Of a stretch of DNA of 64,000 nucleotides, positions 42,090 through 61,949 are shown in pieces. This DNA is from a virus. Taxonomy: Duplodnaviria > Heunggongvirae > Uroviricota > Caudoviricetes. The notes under the pieces were generated by a model, which saw only the letters and a program-made list of their open reading frames with translations, did not search any database and was not told the origin of the DNA. Where the stretch lies: the IMG/VR virus record IMGVR_UViG_3300032116_000040, positions 58,085-122,084 of that record; one strand, 5' to 3'. Made by a program: the position numbers and the translations under genes. Numbering within the stretch: the first letter of the stretch is position 1; the number at the start of each line of letters is the position of its first letter.

Positions 42090-42398
42090 TTATTTTTGAT
42101 CTTTTACTTTTTGTTGAAGATGTGCAGTATAATAAACCTTAGTTTTATCACTAACTGTCGCTGAATCTTCTTGAATACTTCCCTTAATCTTAGTTTTTTC
42201 ATTTATTAAGACCTTATCCCGAGGAATAACCACCCATTGTGATAATTCAGATTTCACAGACTCAATTGTTACAGTCGCATCATCCGCAAAATTAACATCG
42301 TAATCCATTTTTTGAGCAACAGTATTTGTTTTTAAATCTAGTATCGTAACGTCAATAAAATATTTCATAAGTGTTTTTATTTTTTTAATTAGTACCAC
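42090..42398 (-). CDS. small protein immediately downstream of the large fibre-like gene; possible fibre assembly or chaperone protein
   Basis: ORF track. Context only. Confidence 0.35.
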   Translation of the reverse strand: MVLIKKIKTLMKYFIDVTILDLKTNTVAQKMDYDVNFADDATVTIESVKSELSQWVVIPRDKVLINEKTKIKGSIQEDSATVSDKTKVYYTAHLQQKVKDQK

Positions 42399-45181
42399 GC
42401 TGCATAATCGTTTGATGTTCGCCAGTCATCATTGTTTATGTATTCTTTCCTGATAAATGAATCTCCTTTCATTATTGCAATAATTGAATGTTCATCCTCA
42501 TTTTCATCAAAATAGTTAGTCACGATATATAATCGATTATCAATTATTCTAACAGTATTTACGTTAGTCTCGTTAGATACATACGTTGAAATTAATTCTA
42601 AGTCGATATCGTATACATCAACACATGCAAAACCATCTTCATTATTGTATGCACATGCACACATATTCGGCCCTAAATCCAATCCTTCATTATAGAATAC
42701 CGAATCCTTTTCGATTACTGAGCCATCAGCTTTAACTAAAGTTAAAGTATACGATTCAGTGTTTGTAATCTGGTCAGTTATAAGAGAATAATCTTCATTT
42801 AGTGCAGTTAATGTAGCAGATATTGATAAATCATCAACGATAGCTAAATATGCGTCAACCACATTATGAAAATCTGTTTCAGTGAATCCGTGCTGAACTG
42901 ACTCATTATATGTTGACATTAGAAGATAGTGTACTTCAGTTACGCCAGCAGTATCTAGTCCAAGTATCTTGTGATAATCATTATTAGTATCAAGGTCAGT
43001 ATCGACCTCTTGAATTAATGCAGCATCTTGTGCATTTACAATTATGATTTGATTAATAGTTGGATCAGACTCGCCGTCCATGTCACTACCTCCACCAGTA
43101 GTAGTCTTTAGGAATGCAGTATATTCATTACCACCTACTGTTACTTCATATGAATCAAGTGTATTATATCCGTTAGTGTCAATTCCAGTTGAACCCGTTA
43201 TAAAAAATTCAGTGATATCTACGTCTTTAGCAACCATCGTAAATAATCCAGGATATAAGTTAGTAAAGTATTGTGAACCTGTTCCAAAGTCAGCATCACC
43301 AACGACTACTGCTCCGTCCATTTCAAACACACTTAGAGTAGCTTCATCATTTTGGCTAAATACATCAGGTATTACCTCCATTTGAGTATGAGTATATGCA
43401 ATCTCAGATGCAAGATCAGTGTTTAAACGATTTCCACCATCGTACATGTCATCACCGCCATCAGATATGCTATCTTCACCAATATCATTAAATAGATACA
43501 ATCGACGACCTTCTCCGCTCTGGATCAAGAGATTTCCTGGATACAGTTTATCTTTTTGGCGATATGTTGAAGTTGTCTGGATTCGTCCAAATGGAGGCAA
43601 TATATTCGCCGTAAACGGTGCGGGATCTTCAGCCGGTAAATAATATGATTGAAAATCAGTATCGCTTGAATTTCTCCATACTACTATATTTCCTTCTTTC
43701 TCCCAATAATTTGAATCCCTAACGTCATATGAGTACTCTAAAAAGCTATCACCGTCTTTCGTTGTTATAAAATATTTTCCAGGAGAGTCAGTCTCATCTA
43801 GATATGCATCAATTAGATATCGATTACCTAACTCATAAGTATTAAAATAATCGTAATCATCAAATGAAATTAACGGAGATGTACCAATATTACCGTTACT
43901 ATTAAAATTTAAGTAAGCTAATTGAGGTAGAACCGCATCTCTATCTGTACATACTGGCAAATATATTGAGTCTGCAACGTGAATCTGGTCCCAATTAATT
44001 GCCTTTGGTTCGTTGTCAGCAAAAGTATATACTGTCGATAAGTCCTCCATTCCGTCATATAATCGAATAAAATCACAATATGTCACATCACGCAAGTCTT
44101 TGTTATACCCAAGATCGTCTGAGAATGTAATTAGCCCGTTTTCAGTTATAATATCGTATTGACTACCGTTATTTCGATATTGGCCCTTAACTACAAAATT
44201 AGGATAATTTACTCGATCATGAGTAGTGGTCAATAGATTACCGACTACTTCATCATAATAACATATAAAGTATTCAGTATTATTATAGAAGGTATCGACA
44301 TGTTTACCTGCACCAAAAACATCTGCAAATTTACCAGTATAATTACCAGCAGATAAGTCAAGACTTGCTAGTTCAACGCCAGCGTTATCATAATAATAAA
44401 TGTTCTTCCACTCATTATCATCACCATTATAGACAGCTAGCCTAAAAATATTTGAGTTTTCGTATACTTCTAAGTAATAGTTTTCAAATTGATCAACCTC
44501 AATTTTACGTATCAACTTTAATCCAGATTCGTCAGTAAAGAAGACATTGTAGAAACCAGGAGCTTCGGGCCCATCACCTTCAGCAGTATATGATGTTATA
44601 AAAAATCCTGATAAGTTGTCATCCGAATAATCCCACTCAATCGTATCTTGTGAAAGATCTTCAGTCCTTACTTCTAATCCATCGAACCACCATAGTTTAT
44701 ATGCATCCCAATCACATACTACAATAAAATTACCATTTGCACTGTATATGCTAGTGTCTATTGTGGTAAGTTCTAATTTTTGGATAAGCCCTCCTCCTGC
44801 ACTAAAGAAGAAGAATACTCGATCAGCCGAACTGTTATTACTAAACGTCATTAGATACCCGCGATCTTGAACAATGTACGTCCCATCGTAGTTATTATCG
44901 TCATAGTACCAATCTTCACTAGTATTAAGACCAGTATTAAATACTGCAGGAAATGATTTTTTTTCAAAATCCATTATTCCAATATAAAATTGACCGGTCT
45001 CGGATTCATACGTATACGATGAAGTTTGACCCTGCTTAGTTCGAGGCAATCTGCCGCTTCCCGCAGCAGCTGCTGCCATTGCCGCATTATATGACATTTG
45101 TTCGAATATCATTCGCTCTTCCATTTTTCTTCTGATCTCCTTTTGTTCAGGTGTCTCATGACCCCAGTTAATAAATGACAT
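42389..45181 (-). CDS. large tail-fibre or receptor-binding-like protein (930 aa) with the conserved N-terminal module MSFINWGHETPEQ
   Basis: Asp/Asn/Tyr/Gly-rich repetitive sequence. It shares an N-terminal module of about 45 aa with 49906..50724 and 61341..61949. Confidence 0.5.
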   Translation of the reverse strand: MSFINWGHETPEQKEIRRKMEERMIFEQMSYNAAMAAAAAGSGRLPRTKQGQTSSYTYESETGQFYIGIMDFEKKSFPAVFNTGLNTSEDWYYDDNNYDGTYIVQDRGYLMTFSNNSSADRVFFFFSAGGGLIQKLELTTIDTSIYSANGNFIVVCDWDAYKLWWFDGLEVRTEDLSQDTIEWDYSDDNLSGFFITSYTAEGDGPEAPGFYNVFFTDESGLKLIRKIEVDQFENYYLEVYENSNIFRLAVYNGDDNEWKNIYYYDNAGVELASLDLSAGNYTGKFADVFGAGKHVDTFYNNTEYFICYYDEVVGNLLTTTHDRVNYPNFVVKGQYRNNGSQYDIITENGLITFSDDLGYNKDLRDVTYCDFIRLYDGMEDLSTVYTFADNEPKAINWDQIHVADSIYLPVCTDRDAVLPQLAYLNFNSNGNIGTSPLISFDDYDYFNTYELGNRYLIDAYLDETDSPGKYFITTKDGDSFLEYSYDVRDSNYWEKEGNIVVWRNSSDTDFQSYYLPAEDPAPFTANILPPFGRIQTTSTYRQKDKLYPGNLLIQSGEGRRLYLFNDIGEDSISDGGDDMYDGGNRLNTDLASEIAYTHTQMEVIPDVFSQNDEATLSVFEMDGAVVVGDADFGTGSQYFTNLYPGLFTMVAKDVDITEFFITGSTGIDTNGYNTLDSYEVTVGGNEYTAFLKTTTGGGSDMDGESDPTINQIIIVNAQDAALIQEVDTDLDTNNDYHKILGLDTAGVTEVHYLLMSTYNESVQHGFTETDFHNVVDAYLAIVDDLSISATLTALNEDYSLITDQITNTESYTLTLVKADGSVIEKDSVFYNEGLDLGPNMCACAYNNEDGFACVDVYDIDLELISTYVSNETNVNTVRIIDNRLYIVTNYFDENEDEHSIIAIMKGDSFIRKEYINNDDWRTSNDYAAWY

Positions 45182-45190
45182 GTTAAAAAG

Positions 45191-45209
45191 TTATTTTAAT
45201 TATTTATCT
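45191..45209 (-). promoter_or_regulatory. late-promoter-like GATAAATAATTAAAATAAC motif upstream of the fibre gene
   Basis: Motif family. About 10 nt upstream of the ATG at 45181. Confidence 0.4.
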
Positions 45210-45372
45210 TACTCATATTTTAAAAATAGATTTCAATATAGTATATTATGTACATGAAAAGAAGAACATACATTCTGAAATCGAACGTATTCGAGAAGAA
45301 CTTAAGAAGACCACTAAAGTAAAAGAACAAAAGGCAATGGGATTCAGCAATGGAAAATAATTAATAATTAGC

Positions 45373-45811: not shown

Positions 45812-46136
45812 GGATATCAAAGCGATTCACCTAAAGAGTAACGCACAGCGTCTTGAGACCTGGATTGCCATGGTAAACGGCGAGATAGTCGGTCACATCT
45901 ACATGGAAAGAGAGGAGAACAAAAAGATCAAGTTTCTAGACGCTTGGGTTCACGAAGACCATCGGCGTAAGGGAATATTTAGAAAGCTTTGGGACGCTCG
46001 ATGGGAATACGTTCAACAAAAGTATCGAGGCTACCTAGTCTATGCGTGGTGTAAACCCGCTTCCCTGCCTCTCCTAATAGAAAAAGGATTTGATGCAGGC
46101 GAGACCTGTACCTATGTTGAAAAGGTAATCGATTAA
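45798..46136 (+). CDS. small protein, possibly GNAT-like acetyltransferase
   Basis: HRRKGIFRKLW resembles GNAT motif A (R/Q-x-x-G-x-G/A). 112 aa is short for a GNAT. Confidence 0.3.
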   Translation: MEMIEDIKAIHLKSNAQRLETWIAMVNGEIVGHIYMEREENKKIKFLDAWVHEDHRRKGIFRKLWDARWEYVQQKYRGYLVYAWCKPASLPLLIEKGFDAGETCTYVEKVID

Positions 46137-46651
46137 GTCAACTGATCCTTTTCAGGAGAAGGGCTGGTCTTTTTATACATTTTTAGGGCTCCCCAGTGAT
46201 CGCTGCTGTTTGAGTTAGATGCACCAGCTACGATTCCCTTTCCTCGAGGAACGCTTGGTCCAACATACACGTTTTGTGCTGGCACTCCTGCCTTAACCGC
46301 ATTCTCAACTATCTTTTTTGTTCTAGAGCTTGATGCATAGGGTTCGATAATGAATATACGTTTGGGATCAACGTCTGGACTCTTAGCAAGGTCTTCTGCC
46401 TTACCGCAACCCGCACTAAACATGTAGATATCGACTCCTCGTTTTGGATTTTCTTTTAGGAAGTCCAATATTTTTTTGGTCGGTTCTTTGTATCTAAAGC
46501 CCTTTACTTTTTTGTTAGCGCCATACGTCTTTTTCAACATCTCGACTTGTTTATCAATGGGAAAGTCTCCTCTTCTATAGTCAAGACCGCCTATCAGTAT
46601 CGCATCGTATACGATATCTCCAAAATCTTCGTATAATTTAATGTACTTCAT
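46133..46651 (-). CDS. hypothetical protein (172 aa)
   Basis: ORF track. Confidence 0.45.
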   Translation of the reverse strand: MKYIKLYEDFGDIVYDAILIGGLDYRRGDFPIDKQVEMLKKTYGANKKVKGFRYKEPTKKILDFLKENPKRGVDIYMFSAGCGKAEDLAKSPDVDPKRIFIIEPYASSSRTKKIVENAVKAGVPAQNVYVGPSVPRGKGIVAGASNSNSSDHWGALKMYKKTSPSPEKDQLT

Positions 46652-46688
46652 ATTTTTTATTTATCTGTTTTTTGTGTATAATATTCCC

Positions 46689-48979: not shown

Positions 48980-49549
48980 TTATTCATTTTTAAGTAGAAA
49001 AAAGATTGCCTCATTTATCTCGTCAATTGATTTAGCTTTTCTATCTGATGCTTCTATTCTAATACTAGATATGTAATTTTTAATGTGGGTCGAATCAGTT
49101 AAGTTTAAGTATCTGGGAATTATTTCCTTTTGTCCAAGTATCTCATGAGTCTTTATTAAAGCGAACCGATCTGCTACCTTTTCTGCAAATAAAAGCTTAT
49201 CAGTAGCTTTTTGCAGATCAGTTGTACTTGAATAAACATCAAGCATATAGTCACAACCGTATTTTTGATATTGATATTGGTGAGATATCTCATGTAATAC
49301 GATGTACATGAAATACTCAATGGGAAAATTTAGCACAATTAGATTAAGAAGACACTCACCGGGTTTAGAAAAACCCGCAGCTCTTCTTCCCAATTCAGTA
49401 AAACTGATTTTATTACAGCCCGATCTTTGAATGAACTGGCTAACCTTTTTTAGAGCTTCATGTGAGATATCAGTTCTAGCTCTTTTAATTAGGTCGATAA
49501 ATTCTTCGAGTCCTTCTACTCTATTTAACGATCTTGAATCTATCTCCAT
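48980..49549 (-). CDS. putative HExxH zinc metallopeptidase-like protein
   Basis: IVLHEISHQYQYQKYG contains HEISH. Confidence 0.4.
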   Translation of the reverse strand: MEIDSRSLNRVEGLEEFIDLIKRARTDISHEALKKVSQFIQRSGCNKISFTELGRRAAGFSKPGECLLNLIVLNFPIEYFMYIVLHEISHQYQYQKYGCDYMLDVYSSTTDLQKATDKLLFAEKVADRFALIKTHEILGQKEIIPRYLNLTDSTHIKNYISSIRIEASDRKAKSIDEINEAIFFLLKNE

Positions 49550-49904
49550 CTATAAAAGCGATTATCTCGCGAATAGCTTTAACGTAGTTTTTAACTGACC
49601 CTTGATATAGGTCGTATTCGGCCAGCGTCGCATCTCCTGCTATCATGGCAGTCCAAAAGGTTTCAAAGTTTAAATTAAGTTCATTATATGAATCTATTCT
49701 TTGCTGAAGAAGCTCATTTAGTTTTTCTGAACACGGAGAAACAGCAAGGTTTGATTTTTCAAGGTATATTTCTACTTGGTTATCTATTGCTTCCAGCGTT
49801 GTCATCGCGATGTTTTCAGCATCGCTCCATGCTATTTCACTTACGGGTAATTGGTTTAATCCAATTATTCCAAGAACCTCATAGTCGGATAAATCAAATA
49901 GCAT
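49521..49904 (-). CDS. small protein downstream of a fibre-family gene; possible assembly factor
   Basis: ORF track. Context only. Confidence 0.35.
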   Translation of the reverse strand: MLFDLSDYEVLGIIGLNQLPVSEIAWSDAENIAMTTLEAIDNQVEIYLEKSNLAVSPCSEKLNELLQQRIDSYNELNLNFETFWTAMIAGDATLAEYDLYQGSVKNYVKAIREIIAFIDGDRFKIVK

Positions 49905-49905: not shown

Positions 49906-50724
49906 TTATAAAGATTTTTTTATTTTATAGTCAAGTATGTACTTGTTTGCATATAGGAAAGACGTGATGCTATTACTCAATTGATTTTTGTATTTAGCAG
50001 CATCACCACTATTATCCCTTTGCACTGATACGACGTCTGCGACATATGTCTCAAAGAAATTTGAGGTAAATTCACCAGCATCTGGGTCCCAAGAGTAGAA
50101 TGTTCCATCACTCATAACGTGTACTATTTCTCCAGGATTTCCAGAAGTCGGTAGGTTTGCGGGTGAAGCTACTTCAGTCAAATAGTTAAAGTATTTTACC
50201 CCTGGCATCTTGTCTGCAGGTGAAAAACCCGTCACTTTCACTTCAGTCCAACTTTCATACTCAGTCACAGGTAACCACTGAGTATGTTGAGAGTCAGTGA
50301 GCACATTCGAATAGAACTTCGTAGATTCTGGCAGAGGAGGAAGTTCAACTATGTTACTAATTTTTCCTAACTCTCGAGCGACAGCATTTTCACTTTGCTT
50401 TTTAAGATAGAGGTCGCGAGCTGCCCTAAACTCAACCCCTAAATCATCTTCAACAAGTCTATCATAAGTATCGAAGTCCTCATCCGTCATCCTATAGCGA
50501 TCGCTGATTAGATACTGCAAGTCAAAATAATTGTTCTGTGGAGATATTGCTTTTTCTCCACCGCAATATTTAGGAAGAGATATTCCGCGACCGCCACTAC
50601 CTGCTGCAGCAGCCGCGGCTGCTGCAGCTGCAGACATCATTTGTTCAAAGATCATCTGATCTTCCATTTTTCGACGAATTGCTTTTTGTTCTTCTGATTC
50701 TTCTCCCCAATTGATAAATGCCAT
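49906..50724 (-). CDS. fibre-family protein (272 aa) with the shared N-terminal module MAFINWGEESEEQ
   Basis: N-terminal about 45 aa homologous to 42389..45181 and 61341..61949. Poly-Ala linker. Confidence 0.5.
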   Translation of the reverse strand: MAFINWGEESEEQKAIRRKMEDQMIFEQMMSAAAAAAAAAAGSGGRGISLPKYCGGEKAISPQNNYFDLQYLISDRYRMTDEDFDTYDRLVEDDLGVEFRAARDLYLKKQSENAVARELGKISNIVELPPLPESTKFYSNVLTDSQHTQWLPVTEYESWTEVKVTGFSPADKMPGVKYFNYLTEVASPANLPTSGNPGEIVHVMSDGTFYSWDPDAGEFTSNFFETYVADVVSVQRDNSGDAAKYKNQLSNSITSFLYANKYILDYKIKKSL

Positions 50725-50736
50725 GTATCTTTAAGT

Positions 50737-50776
50737 TATTTTAATTATTTATTTTAATTATTTATTTTAATTTTTT
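50737..50776 (-). repeat. about 2.7 tandem copies of a 14-nt AATTATTTATTTTA unit that contains the late-promoter-like motif
   Basis: TTATTTTAATTATTTATTTTAATTATTTATTTTAATTTTTT immediately upstream of 49906..50724. Confidence 0.5.
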
Positions 50777-50821: not shown

Positions 50822-51340
50822 TTAGAATGATATTTTAGTATAGATCTCATCAAAATCAGTGTAACCCTGAGTAAAGGTCCGCCAATCAATTGTGCCGGGT
50901 TCGATCACGCCTGCCTCGACTGCCATATCAATTAGGTCTTGAGCATTTTTACGATCGGTCGCAAGCAGCGCCAGAGTATCTTCTAAAAAAAGGTGAAGCC
51001 TACGTGCCTTTCTATTAACCTGCACAAGAATGTTTACATTTCCCCAATCAGCATCTTTTCCGATTATGGTAAAAGCCTGATCGAAAAACTTATCTGGGAT
51101 AACGTCTATTCCTGTGACAGAAAGATAGCACTCCCTCTTGGAAGGAGAGCTTGAAGAGCTTCGACCGATTAACTTAATCTCACTCGCTACCTTATCGCTA
51201 GCATACTCCTTTCTGTGACTAGCAACACGATCAGCGAATGGGTGCATGCCTTTCCCGCGTAAGTTTGCCTCAATCTCTCTCCATTTTTTGTTAGAAACCT
51301 CGTTAACGAAGGCTTCGAATAACTTGACGTGATTCTTCAT
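50822..51340 (-). CDS. hypothetical protein with capsid-targeting-sequence-like N-terminus (MKNHVKLFEAFVNE)
   Basis: ORF track. Confidence 0.5.
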   Translation of the reverse strand: MKNHVKLFEAFVNEVSNKKWREIEANLRGKGMHPFADRVASHRKEYASDKVASEIKLIGRSSSSSPSKRECYLSVTGIDVIPDKFFDQAFTIIGKDADWGNVNILVQVNRKARRLHLFLEDTLALLATDRKNAQDLIDMAVEAGVIEPGTIDWRTFTQGYTDFDEIYTKISF

Positions 51341-51369: not shown

Positions 51370-52035
51370 CTAGCCGAACATTTTTGATACGATTCCGGCC
51401 ATTACCTTTTCGTGATCGAGTATGCAGCTACCGCCGAATGACTTTCGGTTTATGAGTAGTCCACGACCGAACTTTGTCATCTTTTCTATGTTGGAACTTT
51501 GTACCGGTCCGCTTAGTTTCTTTTCAATCACTGCGGTCCAAGCAGAGGCACTTGCATGGTCTGGATCTAAATTGGGACCAAATGCCTGAATGTACACGTC
51601 GTTCACAGCAATGCTAGTATAATCGAGAGTCTCATTATTTATCACTGAAGGAATGCCCTCAAACTTCATTTCAGAGTTAGTATCCTGCAAGACAAACACT
51701 ACTGGTACTTGAGTATCAGCAGAAGGTTGAAACTTGAGACTCAGCATCTTTTCAAACTCAGCATACAGGTCTCCAGTCTTGCAAGATGACTTGCCGCTGC
51801 CAAATGATACTGGATTAAAAAAGACTGCTAGGGCAAACCCATTGTCCAGCACTCCGCCCTTGTCTTCAGATAAAGGACTGACAACGTTATAGTTTAGGTT
51901 ATATACATAATCTTCGAGAGTGTGTCGACCCGTCTTGATAAAGCCAGAATCCTTTATTCCCGGTGTCATTAGGTTTGCATAAGAATAATTGGCCTCCTCA
52001 AAAAGTCTCCATTCATTAAAGCTTAGTAGTTTCAT
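51370..52035 (-). CDS. hypothetical protein with capsid-targeting-sequence-like N-terminus (MKLLSFNEWRLFEE)
   Basis: ORF track. Confidence 0.5.
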   Translation of the reverse strand: MKLLSFNEWRLFEEANYSYANLMTPGIKDSGFIKTGRHTLEDYVYNLNYNVVSPLSEDKGGVLDNGFALAVFFNPVSFGSGKSSCKTGDLYAEFEKMLSLKFQPSADTQVPVVFVLQDTNSEMKFEGIPSVINNETLDYTSIAVNDVYIQAFGPNLDPDHASASAWTAVIEKKLSGPVQSSNIEKMTKFGRGLLINRKSFGGSCILDHEKVMAGIVSKMFG

Positions 52036-52994: not shown

Positions 52995-53894
52995 ATGAGC
53001 ATATCTAAACTAAACTTAACAAATCCGATGGATTCGGATGTAAAATTCAAGATCTCTCGGTTTCCTGATGGACAACAAACTGTAGATATCGAATCTGCAC
53101 CAATGTATATCAATGGATTAGATGTTAAGATCTATTCTCGAATGAATTCTTTTCGTGATATCGAATTGATTATTGCTGCCAATCAAGCTCTTAGAGAAAT
53201 GGCGGTAGGAACCGTTACCTTATATGTTCCTTATTTCTTGGGTGCACGCTCGGATCGTAAATTTCAACAAGGAGGAACCAATTACTTAAAGCAAGTGATT
53301 TGTCCAATCATCAATGCACAAAAATTCGATTGTGTAATTGTTTTAGATCCACACTCAGATGTACTCGAAGCTTGCTTAAATAACTTCGGAAAGATTGATA
53401 ACCATACAATCGTTAAGTATGCTCTTACAAATATCGATAATCGAAACGCCGCTCGAGACAGAATCTGTTTAGTTTCACCGGACGGCGGTGCTCTAAAGAA
53501 AATCTATGACATCGCACACGAGTTTCAAATTCATCATCTTGTCACGGCAATGAAACACCGCGACATTCAAACTGGAAAAATCAATCATACTGAAGTTCCG
53601 ACCTTGCCAGCTTCTCTTGATGGTGAAAAAATGAAATATGTTATAGTTGATGATATCTGTGATGGAGGTAGAACATTCACTGAATTGGCAAAAGCAATTC
53701 ATGCCCAGCAGCCGGAAGCTAAACTTTACTTAATCGTAACACATGGAATCTTTTCTGCAGGATTTGAAGATCTGAGCAAGTACTTTACTAAGATTTACAC
53801 ATCCAATTCTGTAAAAGATATCATGAATGAAAATGATGATACTGATGCAGAAAGAGCTGCAAAACAAATCGTAACACAATTTAACGTATTCTAA
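52995..53894 (+). CDS. ribose-phosphate pyrophosphokinase (PRPP synthetase) family protein; candidate ADP-ribose pyrophosphokinase of a phage NAD+ reconstitution pathway
   Basis: KFKISRFPDGQQTVDIE, YVPYFLGARSDRKF, LDPHSD and the PRPP-binding loop YVIVDDICDGGRTF parallel E. coli Prs (GRFSDGEVSVQI, IPYFGYARQDRR, VDLHA, VLVDDMIDTGGT). Confidence 0.75.
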   Translation: MSISKLNLTNPMDSDVKFKISRFPDGQQTVDIESAPMYINGLDVKIYSRMNSFRDIELIIAANQALREMAVGTVTLYVPYFLGARSDRKFQQGGTNYLKQVICPIINAQKFDCVIVLDPHSDVLEACLNNFGKIDNHTIVKYALTNIDNRNAARDRICLVSPDGGALKKIYDIAHEFQIHHLVTAMKHRDIQTGKINHTEVPTLPASLDGEKMKYVIVDDICDGGRTFTELAKAIHAQQPEAKLYLIVTHGIFSAGFEDLSKYFTKIYTSNSVKDIMNENDDTDAERAAKQIVTQFNVF

Positions 53895-54370
53895 TGAAGA
53901 TAATCAAACCTCCACACTCAATATCGAAAAACTACGATAGACGAACCAAAAGAGTGTTTTTAGCCGGCACGATAGAGATGGGAAACTCCCATGACTGGCA
54001 GAGCCAGGTGGAAGAGGCTCTCATTAATACTGAGTGCACGATATTAAATCCACGTAGAGAGGCATGGGATTCAAGTTGGGAACAGAGGATCGAGAGTCCT
54101 CAATTCTATCAGCAAGTCAATTGGGAACTGGATGCTCTTAATAAATCCGATCTGATCATCCTGAACCTCCTGCCTGACTCCAAATCACCTATCTCTCTTC
54201 TTGAATTAGGATTATACGCTAGTAGTGGAAAATTACTGGTATGCTGCCCAGATGGATTCTGGAGAAAAGGCAACGTTGAGATCGTGTGTGAGAGATACGA
54301 CATTCCACTATACGAAAGCCTAGCCGATCTTTTAAATTCACTTACGATAAATCAAGCTATAATAATATGA
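53894..54370 (+). CDS. nucleoside 2-deoxyribosyltransferase / Rcl (DNPH1) / LOG-like N-glycosidase superfamily protein
   Basis: N-terminal RVFLAGTIE (LAG motif) and SLLELGLYASSGK (catalytic Glu context) in a protein of about 158 aa. Translationally coupled on both sides. Confidence 0.45.
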   Translation: MKIIKPPHSISKNYDRRTKRVFLAGTIEMGNSHDWQSQVEEALINTECTILNPRREAWDSSWEQRIESPQFYQQVNWELDALNKSDLIILNLLPDSKSPISLLELGLYASSGKLLVCCPDGFWRKGNVEIVCERYDIPLYESLADLLNSLTINQAIII

Positions 54371-54543
54371 AAGAACAAAAATTTTTAATCATTGATGATG
54401 CATCTGAAGTAAATTCATACTTACGTGATGGATGGGAAGTAATTTCGGTAACAGCACAACATGTTGCAGCCGCAGGATCACATAGCTGGTCAGAAAAACT
54501 TGAAGGTAAATTTGCAGTAGTAATCGAAAAACAAAAACAATAA
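54367..54543 (+). CDS. small protein (58 aa) between the Rcl-like and NAMPT-like genes
   Basis: ATGA overlap with the upstream gene. Ends 3 nt before the NAMPT ATG. Confidence 0.35.
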   Translation: MKEQKFLIIDDASEVNSYLRDGWEVISVTAQHVAAAGSHSWSEKLEGKFAVVIEKQKQ

Positions 54544-54545
54544 AT

Positions 54546-56051
54546 ATGAATCCATTATTATTAACTGATGGTTATAAAACATCGCATAATAGACAGTATC
54601 CAGAAGGAACTACTCTAGTCTATTCAAACTTTACACCACGATCTAACAAGTACGCACCGAAAGGATGTGACGAAGTAGTAGTGTTTGGAACACAGATGGT
54701 CATGATTCAGCTTCACGAGATGTTTCAAAAAGATTTCTTTGATAAACCAAAAGATGATGTGTGTCGTGAAATGAAACAAGAATTGTCAATGTATTTGGGA
54801 ACAGAATATGACGTTTCTCACTTTGAAAAGCTACACGACTTGGGTCACTTGCCGATCCATGTTAAATCTCTACCTGAAGGAACCAAGGCACCGATTAAAG
54901 TTCCGGTACTTACGATCTATAACACGCATCCTGATTTCTATTGGATAACAAATTACTTGGAAACGATCCTTTCAAACCTATTGTGGAAACCAATGACATC
55001 AGCAACAATTGCTCATCAGTACAGAAAAGTATTGACCGAGTGGATGTTAAAGACAGATAAGGGCAATGCTTCATTCATTGACTGGCAAGGTCATGACTTC
55101 TCAATGAGAGGAATGGACTCAGTAGAAGCGGTAATTAGTTCTGGCTTGGGCCACTTAACATCATTCTGGGGCACCGATTCATTACCAACAATCTATGGTG
55201 CTCGTAAATACTATGGTGAAGAAGGTTTCTTTTGCGGATCAGTTCCTGCCACTGAACACTCAGTTATGTGTGCAGGTGGAAAAGAGGACGAAGTTGAGAC
55301 ATTCCGCAGATTGTTGAAGACATATCCTACCGGAATCCTTTCAGTTGTATCTGATACTTGGGATTTATTTAAAGTGTGTACAGAACACGTAGTTACTTTG
55401 AAAGAAGAGATCATGTCTCGTGACGGTAAGTTAGTTATTCGCCCTGACTCAGGAGATCCCGTTGATATTCTTTGTGGTAATACATTTACAAAACATGGTG
55501 AATATGTAGGAAAAGGCACATCATTTTATATCGAATCTACGGATGACACGCCTGACGCAAAGGGAGTAATTGAATTACTTTGGGATGTATTCGGTGGAAC
55601 TATCAATGAACAAGGTTACAAAGTTCTTGATTCACACATCGGAGCTATCTATGGTGACTCAATCACGATTGACAGAGCAAACGAAATCTGTAAGCGTTTA
55701 GAAGCAAAAGGGTTTGCATCAACAAACGTAGTGTTAGGTATTGGATCATTCACATATCAATACAATACCAGAGATACATTTGGTTTCGCAATGAAAGCAA
55801 CTTATGTTGAGGTAAATGGTGTTGGTAGAGAAATCTTTAAGGATCCGATTACTGATGATGGTACAAAGAAATCTGCAACAGGTTTATTAAGTGTTCACAA
55901 TCATGATGGTAAATATGTTTTAGTTGATCGTTGTACTTGGGAAGGTGAAGAAGTTAGTTCACTCCAAACCATTTATGAAGATGGTGAATTTGGTGTATTT
56001 TCAACTTTAACTGAAATTAGAGCTCGTTTAAAAGATGATAAGAAACTTTAG
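54546..56051 (+). CDS. nadV: nicotinamide phosphoribosyltransferase (NAMPT/NadV) family protein; candidate nicotinamide ADPR transferase
   Basis: MNPLLLTDGYKTSHNRQYPEGT N-terminus typical of NAMPT. 501 aa. GTDS and other family blocks present. Confidence 0.8.
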   Translation: MNPLLLTDGYKTSHNRQYPEGTTLVYSNFTPRSNKYAPKGCDEVVVFGTQMVMIQLHEMFQKDFFDKPKDDVCREMKQELSMYLGTEYDVSHFEKLHDLGHLPIHVKSLPEGTKAPIKVPVLTIYNTHPDFYWITNYLETILSNLLWKPMTSATIAHQYRKVLTEWMLKTDKGNASFIDWQGHDFSMRGMDSVEAVISSGLGHLTSFWGTDSLPTIYGARKYYGEEGFFCGSVPATEHSVMCAGGKEDEVETFRRLLKTYPTGILSVVSDTWDLFKVCTEHVVTLKEEIMSRDGKLVIRPDSGDPVDILCGNTFTKHGEYVGKGTSFYIESTDDTPDAKGVIELLWDVFGGTINEQGYKVLDSHIGAIYGDSITIDRANEICKRLEAKGFASTNVVLGIGSFTYQYNTRDTFGFAMKATYVEVNGVGREIFKDPITDDGTKKSATGLLSVHNHDGKYVLVDRCTWEGEEVSSLQTIYEDGEFGVFSTLTEIRARLKDDKKL

Positions 56052-57002: not shown

Positions 57003-57497
57003 ATGAAAACGTTTAAGGAGCTTATATCTCAGGAGTATTGGAACTGGATGCCGGGCGAGGACTTTATCCGATCGAATGATCCTCGACAGATCGAGGGATT
57101 TATCCGTGATTACCTAGTCGATGAAGGAGACTGGGTAAAGGTTGAACGCGAGCCACACCCGATTGGTGAACGGGTCAGGATATGGTGGGGAGACACAGTC
57201 GGTCGCAAAACCTGCCATGCAGTAGTAATACCAAATAATCCAGGCAAGCTCTTGGACGAGGAACGTGCTATTCTTACTAAGTGGGATGACTTACGAGAAG
57301 TCGTCATCTACTACATTGGAGGCGGACTGCTTGAACACTGGTACGAGGATCGAGGAGAATATTGGGAGGAGGACATGCTCGAACAGCAGATAACGGAGAC
57401 GTTTTCGGCGGCAGAATTCAAGCTCATGGTATGGGAAGCCGATCGTGAGATGGCGGTTGCTCGTCTAAGAAATAAGTTAATGGATAACTCAAACTAA
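57003..57497 (+). CDS. hypothetical protein (164 aa), noticeably higher GC than its surroundings
   Basis: ORF track. Confidence 0.45.
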   Translation: MKTFKELISQEYWNWMPGEDFIRSNDPRQIEGFIRDYLVDEGDWVKVEREPHPIGERVRIWWGDTVGRKTCHAVVIPNNPGKLLDEERAILTKWDDLREVVIYYIGGGLLEHWYEDRGEYWEEDMLEQQITETFSAAEFKLMVWEADREMAVARLRNKLMDNSN

Positions 57498-57513
57498 CTT
57501 TTAAATCAGAAAT

Positions 57514-57705: not shown

Positions 57706-57797
57706 AAAGTGGCGAACAAGGATGGGATTTATTGGTACTTTGCATTGACTCTACGGTTGACCGCATTATTAACCATCGCTAAAAATTAAGAAGCAAT

Positions 57798-58163: not shown

Positions 58164-58224
58164 CCCGAGTCACTCAAGGCAGGTACGGTATTTGCTCGAT
58201 AAATAAGTAAAAACCGTCTGCTCC

Positions 58225-58746: not shown

Positions 58747-58829
58747 GCATTTTCTTTCTATCAAGTTTTAAAAGAGTTCTGAAATATAGTATCATTTACT
58801 CTATAAAGAAATTAACCTTTAAAAACAGG

Positions 58830-59177: not shown

Positions 59178-59188
59178 ATCAGAATAGA

Positions 59189-59617
59189 ATGGAAAAAGAA
59201 TTTATACCTTATGAGCTGGCTTTAAGAATGAAAGGACTTGTGTTTGATGAAAGATGCTTTAGGTATGAGGCAGTTAAAAAGATTTGTGAAAATCAGGCAC
59301 AGCCTGGAGGATGTCAATTACCTAATGTACATTGCGCATATCCTGGTTGTACTATTGATCGCAGCGTTGAGTCGTTACCTATCCCTGTTTGGCAACAAGC
59401 GTTTAGGTGGTTTAGAGAGAAGAATTTTCACGTTAATATAGATTCATATCACAGCTTAAGTAAGAATAAGCCTTTTGGATTATCGATTGATTATTTACAC
59501 GAATCTGGAAAATTGGATTATGTTGATTACAGAGATGATGAGGATTTTGAAACCTATGAAGAGGCACAAAAAAGAGCAATTGAAATTATTATTGAACTTT
59601 TAGAACGAAAGAAATAG
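59189..59617 (+). CDS. hypothetical protein, tandem paralog A
   Basis: Shares (F/V)xYELAxx(K/M)xLxF...(Q/S)QAFRWFR(E/D) with 59622..60041. Confidence 0.45.
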   Translation: MEKEFIPYELALRMKGLVFDERCFRYEAVKKICENQAQPGGCQLPNVHCAYPGCTIDRSVESLPIPVWQQAFRWFREKNFHVNIDSYHSLSKNKPFGLSIDYLHESGKLDYVDYRDDEDFETYEEAQKRAIEIIIELLERKK

Positions 59618-59621
59618 AACA

Positions 59622-60041
59622 ATGAAAGATTTTGTATCATATGAATTAGCAGTCAAGCTTAAAACATTAGGATTCAATTTGCCATGTTACATGTACATCT
59701 ATACAGGAGATACTGGTAATAATTATGATCATTACTTGGAAGTAAAACCTAGTGATTCAAAGGATTGGAATGGTAAGTCTGACTTATGTGTTTCCCGTCC
59801 AACCTTCTCACAAGCATTTAGATGGTTTAGAGATAACTACAACTTATTCTGCGAAATAAACGTAGATAAGACAATGGAACCTAAGTTTGCTTTTACCATA
59901 AAAGAGTATGAGTCAGATCAGTTCCTTGAGGGATTTGGAGAAGACGTCTTGTCTGAGTATTTGTATTATAAGCATGAAGAAGCAGAACTTGCTTGTCTCC
60001 AAAAACTCGTTGAGATTGTCGAAGAAAATAAATTAGCATAA
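59622..60041 (+). CDS. hypothetical protein, tandem paralog B
   Basis: See paralog A. Confidence 0.45.
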   Translation: MKDFVSYELAVKLKTLGFNLPCYMYIYTGDTGNNYDHYLEVKPSDSKDWNGKSDLCVSRPTFSQAFRWFRDNYNLFCEINVDKTMEPKFAFTIKEYESDQFLEGFGEDVLSEYLYYKHEEAELACLQKLVEIVEENKLA

Positions 60042-60095
60042 GTTTTTTCTTAATCGAAAAATTAGTAATATTTACTTATAACTCAAAAAAGAAAT

Positions 60096-60341
60096 ATGAA
60101 AATCTTTAAATTAGTAATTGAATCAAGGTATGGTGTAGTGGGCGGAGATGAAATGCGAGACATCGTCTTAATATTTCCGGAATCAGAAGCATCGTTTACT
60201 CGACGTAAACACTACGATGAATACTATTTTAACTCTAGTGGCTGTAATGTTGAGGTCACTATGGATAAAATAGTTAGGATAACGAACGATGCATGTCTGG
60301 GTGTTGAATTTGGAAGAGATGAAATTATAATTAAGTGGTAA
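60096..60341 (+). CDS. hypothetical protein (81 aa)
   Basis: ORF track. Confidence 0.4.
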   Translation: MKIFKLVIESRYGVVGGDEMRDIVLIFPESEASFTRRKHYDEYYFNSSGCNVEVTMDKIVRITNDACLGVEFGRDEIIIKW

Positions 60342-60437
60342 TGCTTCAGTCTAAGTTTTTCACGAGAGATCTTTACATTTACTTATAATTAAAAACCTAA
60401 ACCCATGAAAAATCATCATTAATAAAAACAAATAAAA

Positions 60438-61274
60438 ATGACCGATCAATTAGGCGACAGAATGAAGGACTTTTACGAAGACCGAACACGTTACAAGTTG
60501 GCACGTCGCACCAACACAATCATCCGCATCGACGGAAAAGCTTTCCATACTTATACTCGAGGACTTAAGCGTCCATTCGATGAAGGGTTAATGGAAGACA
60601 TGAACAAGACAACTGAGTACCTATGTCAGAATATCCAAGGTGCAAAATTTGGATACGTTCAATCAGATGAGATTTCAATTCTCATCACTGATTACGATGA
60701 CATTTCTACACATGCTTGGTTTGATGGTAACTTGCAGAAAATGGCAAGTATCGCTGCTTCATTGGCAACTGCAAAGTTTAACCAACTAAGAACACTAAGA
60801 AGAATGGAAGAACTTCATGATTACGAAATCATGAGCGTAGTGGAAGAAACTAAACTTGCAATGTTCGATGCTCGAGTATTTCAAATTCCTTACCAAGAGG
60901 AAGTGATTAATTACTTTATTTGGAGACAACAAGATGCTACAAGAAATTCTATTTCTTCTGTTGCTCAAGCTTACTTCTCCTCAAAGGAATTACATGGAAA
61001 GAAAACCAATGAAATGCAAGACATGCTGATGTTGGAAAAAGGAATCAATTGGAATGATTTTACCCCAAGAGAAAAACGAGGATCTCTTATCCGTAAAGTA
61101 GAAAAGACTTATGTGAAATTACAATCTGGACAAACAGTTCAAGTAAATCCTTCCCAAGTAGATCCTAGATTAAACGAAACATTCTCAAGAAACAAATGGG
61201 AAGCTGATAAAGAAACCCCAATCTTTTCGCAAGATAAATGTTATCTTCGTGAGTTAATGCCAAACCACAATTAG
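60438..61274 (+). CDS. Thg1-like protein (tRNA-His guanylyltransferase family 3'-5' nucleotidyltransferase)
   Basis: TIIRIDGKAFHTY, FGYVQSDEISILI and NLQKMASIAASLATAKF align with the Thg1 blocks VVVRLDGRNFHRF, IAYGQSDEYSFVF and FKRRASKFMTHVASQFAS. Confidence 0.65.
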   Translation: MTDQLGDRMKDFYEDRTRYKLARRTNTIIRIDGKAFHTYTRGLKRPFDEGLMEDMNKTTEYLCQNIQGAKFGYVQSDEISILITDYDDISTHAWFDGNLQKMASIAASLATAKFNQLRTLRRMEELHDYEIMSVVEETKLAMFDARVFQIPYQEEVINYFIWRQQDATRNSISSVAQAYFSSKELHGKKTNEMQDMLMLEKGINWNDFTPREKRGSLIRKVEKTYVKLQSGQTVQVNPSQVDPRLNETFSRNKWEADKETPIFSQDKCYLRELMPNHN

Positions 61275-61340
61275 AATGGACCTAGAAGACCTATTTAAAC
61301 CCGACCCGGAGTAGACTGGATATAGACCAGTACGGCCCAT

Positions 61341-61949
61341 TTAACCGATCTGCTCAAATCGAAGAGGATCGATATTACCCGACCCCACATCAGTGATCAG
61401 TCCAGGCACACCATCACCGTCTACATCGGAATAGATTGCACCGTATCCAATGGTCCCGTCAGGGGAATCTCCACCATTGGGTAGGCTAGACTGGGAAGTC
61501 AATTGTGTCATCAGCTGCCAGGTAATTATACGAGTACCGTTCGCCAGGTCAAGATACACCTCGTCATGGGATCCCTTAAGCTCGGTGTTAACGGCCAACG
61601 AATAGCTCGTGTTGTTGACTGGCTGCGAAATACTTGTCCGGTACCACACGTCATAATAGAACAGGTCAAGGTCGACTAGGTTCGCGAAAACATAACGATT
61701 GCCCACCTTAGTATACTCAACATTGGTGAGCTCAAGAGCCTCTGCTAGGTCAGATTTTGGATAGAGCCATGCAGTATCGGTAGCAGTCTTCCAATAAGGA
61801 ACCTGTAACCTCGATCCGCCTACACCACCGATACTGGCCATCGCACTAGAAGCACGGACTGCCTGTTCAAATAAAGCCTGTTCCTCCTCAAATCTCTTAC
61901 GTAGCCTAAGCTGTTCTGGGCTCTCTCCGCCCCAATTAATAAATGACAT
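61341..61949 (-). CDS. fibre-family protein (about 202 aa) with the shared N-terminal module MSFINWGGESPEQ
   Basis: True start taken at the internal ATG at about 61947-61949. The track's 61988 start would place AAATAAATAACTTAAAAAG inside the coding sequence. Confidence 0.5.
   Translation of the reverse strand: MSFINWGGESPEQLRLRKRFEEEQALFEQAVRASSAMASIGGVGGSRLQVPYWKTATDTAWLYPKSDLAEALELTNVEYTKVGNRYVFANLVDLDLFYYDVWYRTSISQPVNNTSYSLAVNTELKGSHDEVYLDLANGTRIITWQLMTQLTSQSSLPNGGDSPDGTIGYGAIYSDVDGDGVPGLITDVGSGNIDPLRFEQIG

What the first reader, a model, noticed from the sequence alone, without database searches (positions are those of the whole stretch)
42389..61949. Three fibre-like proteins of very different length share a conserved N-terminal module of about 45 aa
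MSFINWGHETPEQKEIRRKMEERMIFEQM...AAAAAGSG (930 aa, 42389..45181), MAFINWGEESEEQKAIRRKMEDQMIFEQM...AAAAAAAAAGSG (272 aa, 49906..50724) and MSFINWGGESPEQLRLRKRFEEEQALFEQ... (about 202 aa, 61341..61949) are also similar at the DNA level (CCCCAATT[A/G]ATAAATG[A/C]CAT). Their C-terminal parts are unrelated. Two of them are followed by a small gene, a possible chaperone. This is the pattern of modular receptor-binding proteins with a common baseplate-anchor domain and exchangeable distal domains, which points to host-range modularity and multiple receptor-binding proteins.
Basis: partly seen in the sequence, partly recalled or inferred. Interest (0 to 1): 0.55.

Follow-up and report, generated by a model that had tools for sequence, protein, structure and literature searches.

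The report
Shared N-terminal address tag on swappable phage proteins
Three otherwise unrelated proteins of an uncultivated freshwater jumbo phage start with the same roughly 30-residue tag and flexible linker, a tag found on over 30 unrelated protein bodies in related phages. It most likely addresses binding proteins to one common site on the virus particle.

Summary
Three minus-strand genes (930, 272 and 202 aa) share MSFINWGxExxEQ...R...E...FEQ plus an Ala/Gly/Ser linker and nothing else (pairwise BLASTP E 2e-12 to 4e-10).

An exhaustive profile search finds about 120 cluster representatives. The tag always sits at residue 1, lengths run from 42 to 1118 aa, and the bodies fall into more than 30 unrelated classes. 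One class is a stand-alone protein of about 65 aa. All members come from uncultivated phage contigs. Pfam, PHROGs, the PDB, deposited phage genomes, 185,579 prokaryote genomes and the literature hold nothing for the tag.

The proteins are not fibres. The 930-aa protein models as tag helix, disordered tether, large beta-propeller and beta-sandwich. Other bodies are internalin-like LRR, Laminin-G, BspA-LRR or PKD.

In relatives, one slot beside an M28 peptidase holds four different bodies, and DNA homology stops exactly at the linker. A T4-late-promoter-like ATAAATA box sits 26-28 nt upstream.

Best reading (about 0.5): a virion docking peptide with a tether and exchangeable binding domains, docking site unknown. 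Main rival (about 0.27): a capsid-targeting propeptide cut by the T4-type prohead protease.

This is a new variant of a known principle.

In passing: about 20 ORFs in the window carry T4 CTS-like N-termini.

The parts
42389..45181 (-). 930-aa FINWG-tagged protein. Tag helix at residues 9-28, disordered Ala/Gly/Ser tether at residues 29-51, then large beta-propeller(s) (about 52-560), a beta-sandwich (about 580-760), helices (768-802) and a C-terminal beta domain (811-915).
   Evidence: Translation. AF2 model from a 17-sequence alignment, mean pLDDT 76. Best PDB matches by Foldseek are sortilin Vps10p ten-bladed propellers. This is the largest body class, with 20 representatives.
45053..45181 (-). 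Tag plus linker of the 930-aa gene (residues 1-43). This is the conserved 5' part of the cassette. Homology to relatives that carry other bodies ends at 45059-45063.
   Evidence: blastn: L001 (LRR+LamG body) 85% identity to window 45209-45063, and L009 (727-aa body) 83% to 45300-45059. Nothing further aligns until the M28 gene.
45188..45211 (-). Promoter-like box and A-rich leader, TAAGATAAATAATTAAAATAACTT. The ATAAATA box starts 26 nt before the ATG.
   Evidence: Relatives have the same element at 26-28 nt in 25 of 34 distinct FINWG gene starts, against a background of 1.8% per 60-nt window.
42090..42368 (-). 92-aa gene directly downstream of the 930-aa gene. It is a candidate partner of the propeller body.
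   Evidence: Among the fetched loci it occurs only next to 927/930-aa propeller-class genes: 86% identity in L006/L007 and 100% in L043, which is the same phage. It is absent where the slot holds the LRR+LamG body. The only family match is a weak, sub-threshold one to Phage_connect_2 (E 0.015).
41349..42089 (+). M28-family peptidase. It is the conserved 3' flank of the swap slot.
   Evidence: Pfam Peptidase_M28, E 3e-10. It is 66-84% identical and adjacent to a FINWG gene in L001, L007, L009 and L028. In L001 and L007 it has FINWG genes on both sides.
49906..50724 (-). 272-aa FINWG-tagged protein. The tag and linker are residues 1-45 (50590-50724). The body belongs to a conserved class with YCGG[DE]K just after the linker.
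   Evidence: 9 representatives. Orthologues are 37-47% identical in L025/L035 and L029/L031. There are no family hits. The single-sequence AF2 model was uninformative.
50733..50769 (-). Two overlapping copies of the promoter-like element upstream of the 272-aa gene.
49521..49904 (-). 127-aa gene that always follows the 272-aa class.
   Evidence: tblastn finds it directly after the 272-class gene in L025/L035 (44% identity) and L029/L031 (32%).
48980..49549 (-). 189-aa gene, third member of the 272-127-189 trio. It carries an HEISH (HExxH) motif.
   Evidence: Translation. Weak, sub-threshold Pfam matches to YgjP-like and DUF6782 metallopeptidases. Conserved after the 272 class at 41-47% identity.
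61341..61949 (-). 202-aa FINWG-tagged protein. The tag and linker are residues 1-46 (61812-61949).
   Evidence: Orthologues of 200-201 aa are 44-47% identical over the body in L017/L018/L020 and L021, and P0068 is 201 aa.
61964..61973 (-). ATAAATAACT promoter-like box. The ATAAATA starts 24 nt before ATG 61949, inside the spurious 61988 extension.

Best explanation
The first ~30 residues act as a portable address peptide. The tag is M-S-F-I-N-W-G-x-E-[ST]-P-E-Q, followed by a charged amphipathic helix ending in hydrophobic-[FY]-E-Q. I infer that it docks its carrier onto one common partner in the virion of a T4-related jumbo phage lineage.

An Ala/Gly/Ser linker of 10-25 residues then tethers an interchangeable body, usually a binding module: beta-propeller, internalin-like LRR, Laminin-G, BspA-LRR or PKD. 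Each phage encodes several such proteins, at least 3-4 per partial genome.

New bodies are acquired by recombination. The promoter-like box, leader, tag and linker (about 150 bp) serve as the upstream homology arm, and the junction falls in the linker.

What is shown: the module, its strict N-terminal position, its spread over more than 30 body classes, the swap junction, the binding-type folds and the late-type promoter box.

What is inferred: that the tag docks to a virion component, that the bodies face outward as adhesins or receptor binders, and the docking site itself. Capsid surface, neck, tail and baseplate all remain open.
For: (1) About 120 representatives carry the tag, and 103 of the 120 have F at residue 3. 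N5, W6, G7, E9, Q13, R17 and E21 are nearly invariant. Conservation collapses after residue ~28 into a low-complexity linker.
(2) The bodies fall into more than 30 unrelated clusters.
(3) In the AF2 model the tag is a free helix followed by a disordered tether, not packed against the body.
(4) All identifiable bodies are binding modules. These are LRR, Laminin_G_3, DUF285 and PKD, internalin K-like LRR and a Vps10p-like propeller. The LamG part matches segments of PHROGs annotated 'virion structural protein' and 'baseplate wedge subunit'.
(5) One slot holds four different bodies with the same tag, and the DNA breakpoint is at the linker.
(6) Tags of different classes within one genome resemble each other more than tags from different genomes. 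Identity over residues 14-45 is 0.57 against 0.40 (Mann-Whitney p 4e-6) and 0.46 for the same class in different genomes. That is what one common partner or recombination between the tags would give.
(7) The ATAAATA box precedes all three genes, a gp4-like head-completion gene, and 25 of 34 FINWG genes in relatives at a fixed 26-28 nt.
(8) About 20 other ORFs in this genome carry a separate, T4-like capsid-targeting motif. FINWG is therefore probably a different address.
(9) There is experimental precedent. A 29-aa N-terminal 'conserved peptide' is necessary and sufficient to dock foreign receptor-binding proteins on phage KP32 (PMC13352976).
Against: There is no direct evidence that any FINWG protein is in a virion. 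No docking partner has been identified.

The genes lie among accessory or effector-like genes (adenylate/guanylate cyclase, patatin, papain-like and M28 peptidases), not in a tail or baseplate module.

The tag contains a conserved [LIVM]-[FY]-E-[QA] just before the linker in 117 of 120 members, and also an invariant G-x-E at residues 7-9. Both resemble prohead-protease cleavage sites, which fits the rival reading.

LRR and propeller domains also occur in injected effectors.

The stand-alone ~65-aa member has no body to display.

The p-value comes from non-independent pairs.
Confidence: 0.5

Rival explanations
1. The tag is a capsid-targeting propeptide. It would carry these proteins into the prohead core, as the T4 CTS does for IPI-III and Alt. 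The T4-type (S77) prohead protease would then cut at [LIVM]-[FY]-E|Q (or at G-x-E|S), leaving swappable cargo that is injected with the DNA.
For: The lineage is T4-like: Portal_T4 in the window, and Peptidase_S77 and Gp23 near the small FINWG gene in L004. A hydrophobic-aromatic-Glu motif lies at the helix end, just before a disordered linker, in 117 of 120 members. Where the first copy is lost, a second [LIVM]-F-E-A appears about 10 residues later. In L004 the MCP N-terminal region contains P-L-F-E-N; aligning it with the T4 gp23 cleavage site is from my own memory of the T4 sequence. A hypervariable cargo behind a conserved N-terminus and a conserved promoter parallels the T4 internal-protein loci (own knowledge; CTS in PMC9958956). 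Neighbouring genes are effector-like, and several carry CTS-like N-termini. In L004 the small member lies in the head gene cluster.
Against: The same genome already uses a different, T4-like CTS motif on about 20 ORFs. The identifiable bodies (LamG, PKD, BspA-LRR, internalin-like LRR) are typical surface-binding modules, and the LamG part is homologous to parts of annotated virion structural and baseplate proteins. A conserved flexible tether has no obvious use in a propeptide. There is no significant similarity to T4 gp67 (hhalign probability 0.3%).
Confidence: 0.27
2. The tag is an oligomerisation element, a short helical bundle or stalk that assembles the bodies into homo- or hetero-oligomers. 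It would not be an address to a shared partner.
For: There is an amphipathic charged helix at residues 9-28. Many phage fibres trimerise through N-terminal helices (own knowledge). Tags are homogenised within a genome, which would allow hetero-oligomers.
Against: The helix is only about 20 residues long. The most conserved part is the non-helical extreme N-terminus MSFINWG, which suggests recognition of the terminus itself. The identified bodies are folds that are normally monomeric. The ~65-aa stand-alone member would have nothing to oligomerise.
Confidence: 0.08
3. The tag is a processing, sorting or turnover signal that acts inside the infected cell and has nothing to do with the virion. 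For example, one of the adjacent peptidases (M28, or the HExxH protein) might recognise it.
For: An M28 peptidase is the conserved neighbour of the swap slot in at least five lineages and is flanked by FINWG genes on both sides in two of them. An HExxH protein always accompanies the 272-aa class.
Against: The peptidases are on the opposite strand or separated by another gene, so adjacency is the only link. The late-type promoter box is shared with a head-completion gene. The tag has no signal-peptide-like hydrophobic stretch. Binding-type bodies fit display better.
Confidence: 0.1

Closest known systems
The 'conserved peptide' of secondary receptor-binding proteins (RBP2) in KP32/K11/KP34-type Klebsiella podophages, docking onto the T4gp10-like branching domain of RBP1 (PMC13352976)
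   Same: A short N-terminal peptide (29 aa there, about 30 aa here) that is the only conserved part. It precedes unrelated, exchangeable bodies. In KP32 it is necessary for virion incorporation and is portable to a foreign body.
   Different: There is no sequence similarity: tblastn of the 930- and 272-aa proteins against 50,697 phage records found no match to the tag. Here there are at least 3-4 carriers per partial genome and more than 30 body classes, not one RBP2. The bodies are propeller, LRR or LamG modules, not trimeric beta-helix depolymerases. A flexible low-complexity tether follows the peptide. The partner is unknown. The host phage is a T4-related jumbo phage.
T4 capsid-targeting sequence (CTS) of internal proteins IPII and IPIII (MKTYQEFIAE), removed by the gp21 prohead protease (PMC9958956; sequences read)
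   Same: A conserved extreme N-terminus on otherwise unrelated, rapidly exchanged proteins of a T4-type phage. Late expression. A Glu-containing candidate protease site follows the conserved part.
   Different: The sequence differs and is three times longer. It is followed by a tether. The bodies are large binding modules rather than small basic proteins. The same genome carries a separate set of about 20 ORFs whose N-termini do resemble the T4 CTS.
Capsid decoration proteins with an anchor plus exposed binding domains: T4 Hoc (PMC9958956) and T5 pb10 (own knowledge)
   Same: A small capsid-binding part joined to exposed Ig-like or adhesin-type domains. These proteins are non-essential and adhesive. 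Many equivalent sites per capsid would accommodate several competing carriers.
   Different: Hoc anchors through its C-terminal domain, and its anchor is a folded domain rather than a ~30-aa peptide. There is no homology (no Pfam or PHROG hit to the tag). A capsid location is not shown here.
Multi-tailspike phages with shared N-terminal adaptor-binding modules: K1-5/K1E/SP6, CBA120, and the phiKp24/RaK2-type branched fibres (own knowledge; phiKp24 in PMC9700779)
   Same: Several receptor-binding proteins per virion, with conserved N-terminal attachment parts and variable distal parts.
   Different: Those proteins are trimeric spikes or fibres encoded in tail gene clusters, and their attachment domains are structured. 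Here the genes are scattered among accessory genes and the bodies are globular.

Membership tests
KP32-type RBP2 docking ('conserved') peptide system | A short conserved N-terminal peptide (about 29 aa) followed by an unrelated exchangeable body | tested here: met
   The tag spans residues 1 to about 30, always at the N-terminus, on more than 30 unrelated body classes.
KP32-type RBP2 docking ('conserved') peptide system | Sequence homology to the Klebsiella-phage RBP2 peptide | tested here: not met
   tblastn of the 930-aa protein (E<=1e-5) and the 272-aa protein (E<=1) against the INPHARED phage collection found no match to the tag. I assumed that the collection includes KP32-like phages.
KP32-type RBP2 docking ('conserved') peptide system | A partner RBP1 with a T4gp10-like branching domain in the same genome | not tested
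   No such protein was looked for, and the window covers only 64 kb of a genome of at least 248 kb.
KP32-type RBP2 docking ('conserved') peptide system | The peptide is required for incorporation into the virion | not testable with these tools
   This needs genetics or proteomics on a phage that has not been cultivated.
T4-type capsid-targeting sequence / internal head proteins | An N-terminal ~10-aa CTS resembling MKTYQEFIAE | tested here: not met
   The FINWG N-terminus differs from the IPII/IPIII and IPI N-termini read. Other ORFs in the window do resemble them.
T4-type capsid-targeting sequence / internal head proteins | A prohead-protease site (L/I-x-E in T4, own knowledge) at the end of the targeting segment | tested here: inconclusive
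   [LIVMAF]-[FYLMIVH]-E-[QAHEM] is present before the linker in 117 of 120 members, and G-x-E at residues 7-9 in nearly all. A three-residue motif cannot show cleavage.
T4-type capsid-targeting sequence / internal head proteins | A T4-type head machinery (portal, S77 protease, gp23-like MCP) in the lineage | tested here: met
   Portal_T4 in the window (E 2e-61). Peptidase_S77 and Gp23 lie 4-5 genes from the small FINWG gene in L004.
T4-type capsid-targeting sequence / internal head proteins | Packaged inside the head and processed | not testable with these tools
   This needs particle proteomics with N-terminal mapping.
Phage tail fibres / tailspikes (fibrous trimeric receptor-binding proteins) | An elongated trimeric fibre or beta-helix fold | tested here: not met
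   The AF2 model of the 930-aa protein shows beta-propeller(s) and a beta-sandwich, with sortilin-like propellers as the top matches. Other classes are LRR and LamG. The 272- and 202-aa bodies were not resolved.
Phage tail fibres / tailspikes (fibrous trimeric receptor-binding proteins) | Homology to annotated tail fibre, spike or baseplate families | tested here: inconclusive
   The three window proteins have no Pfam or PHROG hits. Only the LamG domain of relatives matches segments of 'baseplate wedge subunit' and 'virion structural protein' PHROGs.
Hoc-like capsid decoration proteins | Ig-like domains plus a conserved capsid-binding domain homologous to Hoc | tested here: not met
   No Pfam or PHROG match of that kind was found. 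There was one marginal PKD hit among 50 members. The anchor here is N-terminal and peptide-sized.

The most novel reading that the evidence does not exclude
FINWG is a second, longer capsid-loading propeptide. On this reading the jumbo phage packs a large, rapidly swappable arsenal into its head and injects it with the DNA. The arsenal would comprise the FINWG-tagged LRR, propeller and LamG binders and the ~20 ORFs per 64 kb with T4 CTS-like N-termini, which include an adenylate/guanylate cyclase. That would be an effector-delivery system far larger than the handful of T4 internal proteins, with two distinct address codes.
Probability: 0.25. Interest if true: 0.8.

Novelty: new variant of a known kind. 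Interest (0 to 1): 0.55.

Why it matters
The tag would be a compact, portable connector that evolution has already joined to more than 30 unrelated protein bodies. That makes it a ready-made handle for displaying or loading foreign proteins on jumbo-phage particles.

It would also mark host-interaction genes in uncultivated freshwater jumbo phages, where almost everything is annotated 'hypothetical'.

The exact swap junction in the linker, and the conserved promoter-leader-tag arm of about 150 bp, give a concrete mechanism for how such phages exchange specificity modules.

Together with the CTS-like N-termini on about a fifth of the ORFs, it suggests that N-terminal address codes can be read from sequence to sort a jumbo-phage proteome into virion compartments. 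Metaproteomics can test this directly.

Tried and rejected
- **T4 gp67 as a homologue of the ~65-aa stand-alone member.** By eye the two share AARK...EAM and an acidic tail. hhalign gives a probability of 0.3%, so I rejected homology. Only the general architecture is alike.
- **ATAAATA box specific to FINWG genes.** It is not. It precedes 27 of the 105 ORFs, mostly ORFs with conserved N-terminal motifs, and a head-completion gene.
- **Structure of the 272-aa protein.** The single-sequence AF2 model has pLDDT 37 and is unusable.
- **Sequence searches against the PDB.** The 930-class profile and P0087, P0032 and P0042 gave nothing.
- **BFVD fold search.** Only uncharacterised 'uncultured Caudovirales' proteins and generic propellers came up.
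- **Cultured or annotated relatives.** I found none in INPHARED and none in 185,579 prokaryote genomes. All source names are 'hypothetical protein'. No paper contains 'FINWG' in a relevant sense.
- **Metagenome DNA-pattern scan.** I could not use it to count copies per genome.
- **Tail or baseplate genes next to the FINWG genes.** None was recognised.

Full report
**Context**

The window comes from an uncultivated T4-related jumbo phage.
- It encodes a Portal_T4 protein at 10729-12450 (E 2e-61) and a gp4-like head-completion protein at 9598-10098.
- It also encodes a UvsW-like helicase, a family-B polymerase fragment, a primase, NAMPT and Thg1.
- The nearest portals in deposited phage genomes are those of metagenomic huge phages (LR7565xx, Lak) at no more than 39% identity.
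- Contigs carrying exactly these proteins reach 248 kb and come from freshwater metagenomes. Every source calls them 'hypothetical protein'.

**The observation**

Three minus-strand genes begin with the same sequence, followed by an Ala/Gly/Ser-rich linker ending in GSG or GG.
- The genes are 42389-45181 (930 aa), 49906-50724 (272 aa) and 61341-61949 (202 aa).
- The shared sequence is M-[SA]-F-I-N-W-G-x-E-x-x-E-Q...R...E...F-E-Q.
- Pairwise BLASTP gives one significant segment per pair, always at residues 1 to about 55 (E 2e-12, 4e-10, 7e-11). Nothing else aligns.
- A six-frame scan finds only these three copies in the window.
- The third gene should start at ATG 61949. Its homologues start there, and the promoter-like box lies inside the longer reading frame.

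**How widespread the tag is**

- A word-indexed profile search first returned mostly ~65-aa proteins. These consist of the tag, the linker and a short acidic/aromatic C-terminus, N-x-Y-V-E-N-G-Y-I-D-D-Y-F-E.
- The exhaustive search of 1.84 billion cluster representatives found 130 proteins at E<=1e-3. About 120 are true members. In 103 of them F is residue 3, and lengths run from 42 to 1118 aa.
- N5, W6, G7, E9, Q13, R17 and E21 are nearly invariant. Conservation ends at about residue 28 and gives way to a low-complexity linker.
- The parts after residue 60 fall into more than 30 unrelated clusters:
  - a ~930-aa class (20 representatives);
  - a 272-aa class (9);
  - an LRR+Laminin-G class (7);
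  - a ~310-aa class (7), which shares one domain with residues ~580-780 of the 930-aa protein;
  - classes of ~190, ~300 and ~202 aa;
  - many singletons.
- So the three window proteins represent conserved classes, and each phage carries a different selection. One 128-kb contig has 927-, 268-, 66- and 304-aa members. A 176-kb contig has 190-, 302-, 273- and 201-aa members.
- The tag has no match in Pfam or PHROGs, the PDB, 50,697 phage records, 185,579 prokaryote genomes or the literature.

**What the bodies are**

- The 930-aa protein was modelled from a 17-sequence alignment (mean pLDDT 76). Its parts are:
  - a helix at residues 11-28;
  - a disordered stretch at 29-51;
  - about 500 residues of beta-propeller;
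  - a beta-sandwich;
  - a short helical segment;
  - a final beta domain.
- Its best PDB matches are the ten-bladed Vps10p propellers of sortilin and other generic propellers. Among viral models only uncharacterised relatives match. It is therefore not a fibre.
- Among 50 other representatives, Pfam recognises LRR (3), Laminin_G_3 (3), DUF285/BspA-type LRR (1) and PKD (1, marginal).
- The LRR is internalin-like.
- The LamG part matches segments of PHROGs annotated 'virion structural protein' and 'baseplate wedge subunit'.
- Every recognisable body is a binding module. No enzyme was recognised.

**Cassette exchange**

In relatives whose flanking genes are 65-90% identical to the window, the slot between the acetyltransferase-like gene and the M28 peptidase (window 41349-42089) holds different bodies:

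| Locus | Body in the slot |
|---|---|
| Window, L007 | 927/930-aa propeller protein |
| L001/L008 | 542-aa LRR+LamG protein |
| L028 | 550-aa LRR+LamG protein |
| L009 | 727-aa protein |

- At the DNA level, homology between the window and L001 or L009 runs from the promoter-like box through about codon 40. It stops at window 45059-45063, inside the poly-Ala/GSG linker, and resumes only at the M28 gene.
- The stand-alone small gene of L001 aligns to exactly the same ~150 bp.
- The unit is therefore promoter-like box + leader + tag + linker. The linker is the recombination junction.
- Tags of different classes within one genome are more alike than tags from different genomes. Identity over residues 14-45 is 0.57 against 0.40 (p 4e-6, pairs not independent). 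They are at least as alike as orthologous tags in other genomes (0.46).
- The homogenisation extends into the low-complexity linker. This points to recombination or gene conversion among the tags, and is also compatible with one common partner per genome.

**Regulation**

- An ATAAATA box, which resembles the T4 late promoter TATAAATA (own knowledge), starts 24-28 nt before the ATG of all three genes.
- In relatives, 25 of 34 distinct FINWG starts have it, almost always at 26-28 nt. The background is 1.8% per 60-nt window. It is followed by a conserved TAAAATAA leader.
- The box is not specific to FINWG genes. It precedes 27 of the 105 ORFs in the window, including the gp4-like head-completion gene. 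It is absent from the replication and NAD-salvage genes.
- This places the FINWG genes in what is probably the late regulon. It is the only evidence, and it is indirect, bearing on virion membership.

**Downstream genes**

- The 92-aa gene (42090-42368) occurs only with the propeller class.
- The 127-aa and 189-aa genes always follow the 272-aa class, in two further lineages at 32-47% identity.
- The 189-aa protein contains HEISH and has weak metallopeptidase matches.
- These genes are cognate partners of particular bodies. 'Chaperone' is possible for the 92- and 127-aa genes but is not shown.

**Mechanism**

I favour a docking peptide, with confidence of about 0.5.
- The invariant extreme N-terminus and short amphipathic helix would bind one common virion partner.
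- The linker would tether a binding module.
- Bodies would be exchanged by recombination in the linker.
- This matches the experimentally established 29-aa 'conserved peptide' of KP32-type RBP2 in principle, but not in sequence (PMC13352976).
- The docking site is unknown.

The main rival is a capsid-targeting propeptide, with confidence of about 0.27.
- In its favour:
  - the lineage has a T4-type head and an S77 protease;
  - a [LIVM]-[FY]-E-[QA] motif sits at the helix end in 117 of 120 members, and G-x-E at residues 7-9;
  - the pattern of conserved N-terminus, conserved promoter and hypervariable cargo is that of the T4 internal-protein loci;
  - the neighbouring genes look like effectors.
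- Against it:
  - the same genome has a distinct set of ORFs whose N-termini resemble the T4 CTS, such as MLKSFVQFIAES and MKNQIKTFNQFINES, against T4 MKTYQEFIAE;
  - the bodies are surface-type binding modules;
  - the tether is conserved.

Oligomerisation alone (0.08) and an intracellular processing signal linked to the neighbouring peptidases (0.1) are less likely.

**Verdict**

The modularity and the swaps are real. Fibre, baseplate anchor and chaperone are not shown.
- This is a previously undescribed tag family, restricted so far to uncultivated freshwater jumbo phages, and a new variant of the known 'conserved anchor, variable distal domain' principle.

Noticed in passing
window, e.g. 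4687-5061(-), 9211-9519(+), 14003-14446(-), 14446-14754(-), 16592-17590(-), 19468-20286(-), 21127-22011(+), 23515-25449(-), 32909-33235(-), 34196-34897(-), 37660-39159(-), 39528-41048(+), 46133-46651(-), 50822-51340(-), 51370-52035(-), 57003-57497(+), 62060-62635(+), 62986-63639(-): About 16-20 of the 105 ORFs share a second N-terminal motif: M-x(2-6)-hydrophobic-x-x-[FY]-x-x-[FWY]-[ILV]-x-E. Examples are MKNQIKTFNQFINES, MLKSFVQFIAES and MKTFKELIS. It closely resembles the T4 capsid-targeting sequences MKTYQEFIAE (IPII, IPIII) and MKTFKEFTS (IPI), including an [ILV]-x-E protease-type site. A regex finds it in 16 N-termini against 5.5 expected (binomial p 1e-4), but I defined the motif after seeing the sequences. 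Orthologues only 33-55% identical keep it. This may mean an unusually large set of head-packaged proteins.
   Followed up: partly
window-wide; e.g. 9585-9594(+), 17607-17616(-), 39439-39448(-), 63655-63664(-): An ATAAATA box (like the T4 late promoter) lies within 60 nt upstream of 27 of the 105 ORFs. It precedes 19 of 23 ORFs with a FINWG or CTS-like N-terminus, against 8 of 82 others (Fisher p 4e-11). With the regex-defined set the figures are 11 of 16 against 16 of 89 (p 1e-4). It also precedes the gp4-like head-completion gene. Replication and NAD-salvage genes lack it.
   Followed up: partly
window 27548-37660: A cluster of effector-like genes. It holds a phage tail lysozyme (27548-28243), an SPFH/Band 7 protein (31559-32461), a patatin-like phospholipase (33235-34194) and an adenylate/guanylate cyclase domain protein with a CTS-like N-terminus (34196-34897). 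It also holds a zinc-ribbon protein (35422-36174) and a papain-like cysteine protease (36974-37660). In relatives, FINWG genes are inserted between homologues of these genes.
   Followed up: no
window 41349-42089(+); L001 9215-9955; L007 13083-13823: An M28-family peptidase is the conserved neighbour of the FINWG swap slot in at least five lineages. In two of them it has FINWG genes on both sides. Whether it processes the tag is unknown.
   Followed up: no
P0114, P0119, P0126, P0127, P0141, P0142, P0144: Some small proteins (65-81 aa) lack the FINWG start. They keep a helix, a Gly/Ser linker and the same C-terminal motif N-x-Y-V-E-N-[DG]-Y-[IV]-[ED]-D-Y-F-E. The small protein family is therefore broader than the tag and may be its ancestor. 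[quoted passage not shown]
   Followed up: no
L004 6553-7398 and 8033-9358: In a more distant T4-like phage, two proteins just downstream of the major capsid protein gene share a different N-terminal module, MSLxTRxxKGSKLTIQEMDGNLxYL. One of them has a collagen-like G-x-x repeat stretch. The small FINWG gene follows them. This is another shared-N-terminus system in the same kind of phage.
   Followed up: no
window 12298-12450(+): The portal protein ends in a long Ala/Pro/Gly-rich low-complexity tail, AAAAAAAPGGAPGGAPPAPGGGAPAAAAAAPAEGGGE....
   Followed up: no
window 6623-8056(+): The family-B DNA polymerase ORF (477 aa) matches only the C-terminal half of the polymerase profiles (PHROG 262 positions 500-841). 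The polymerase therefore appears to be split or interrupted.
   Followed up: no
window 52995-56051(+) and 60438-61274(+): An NAD/nucleotide salvage cluster (phosphoribosyltransferase, nucleoside 2-deoxyribosyltransferase-like protein, NAMPT) and a Thg1-like tRNA-His guanylyltransferase.
   Followed up: no
upstream of FINWG genes in the window and in L001-L042: Leaders are A-rich, with a conserved TAAAATAA at about -17 to -10 and no obvious Shine-Dalgarno sequence. This holds even for FINWG genes that lack the ATAAATA box. It may reflect the host's mode of translation initiation.
   Followed up: no
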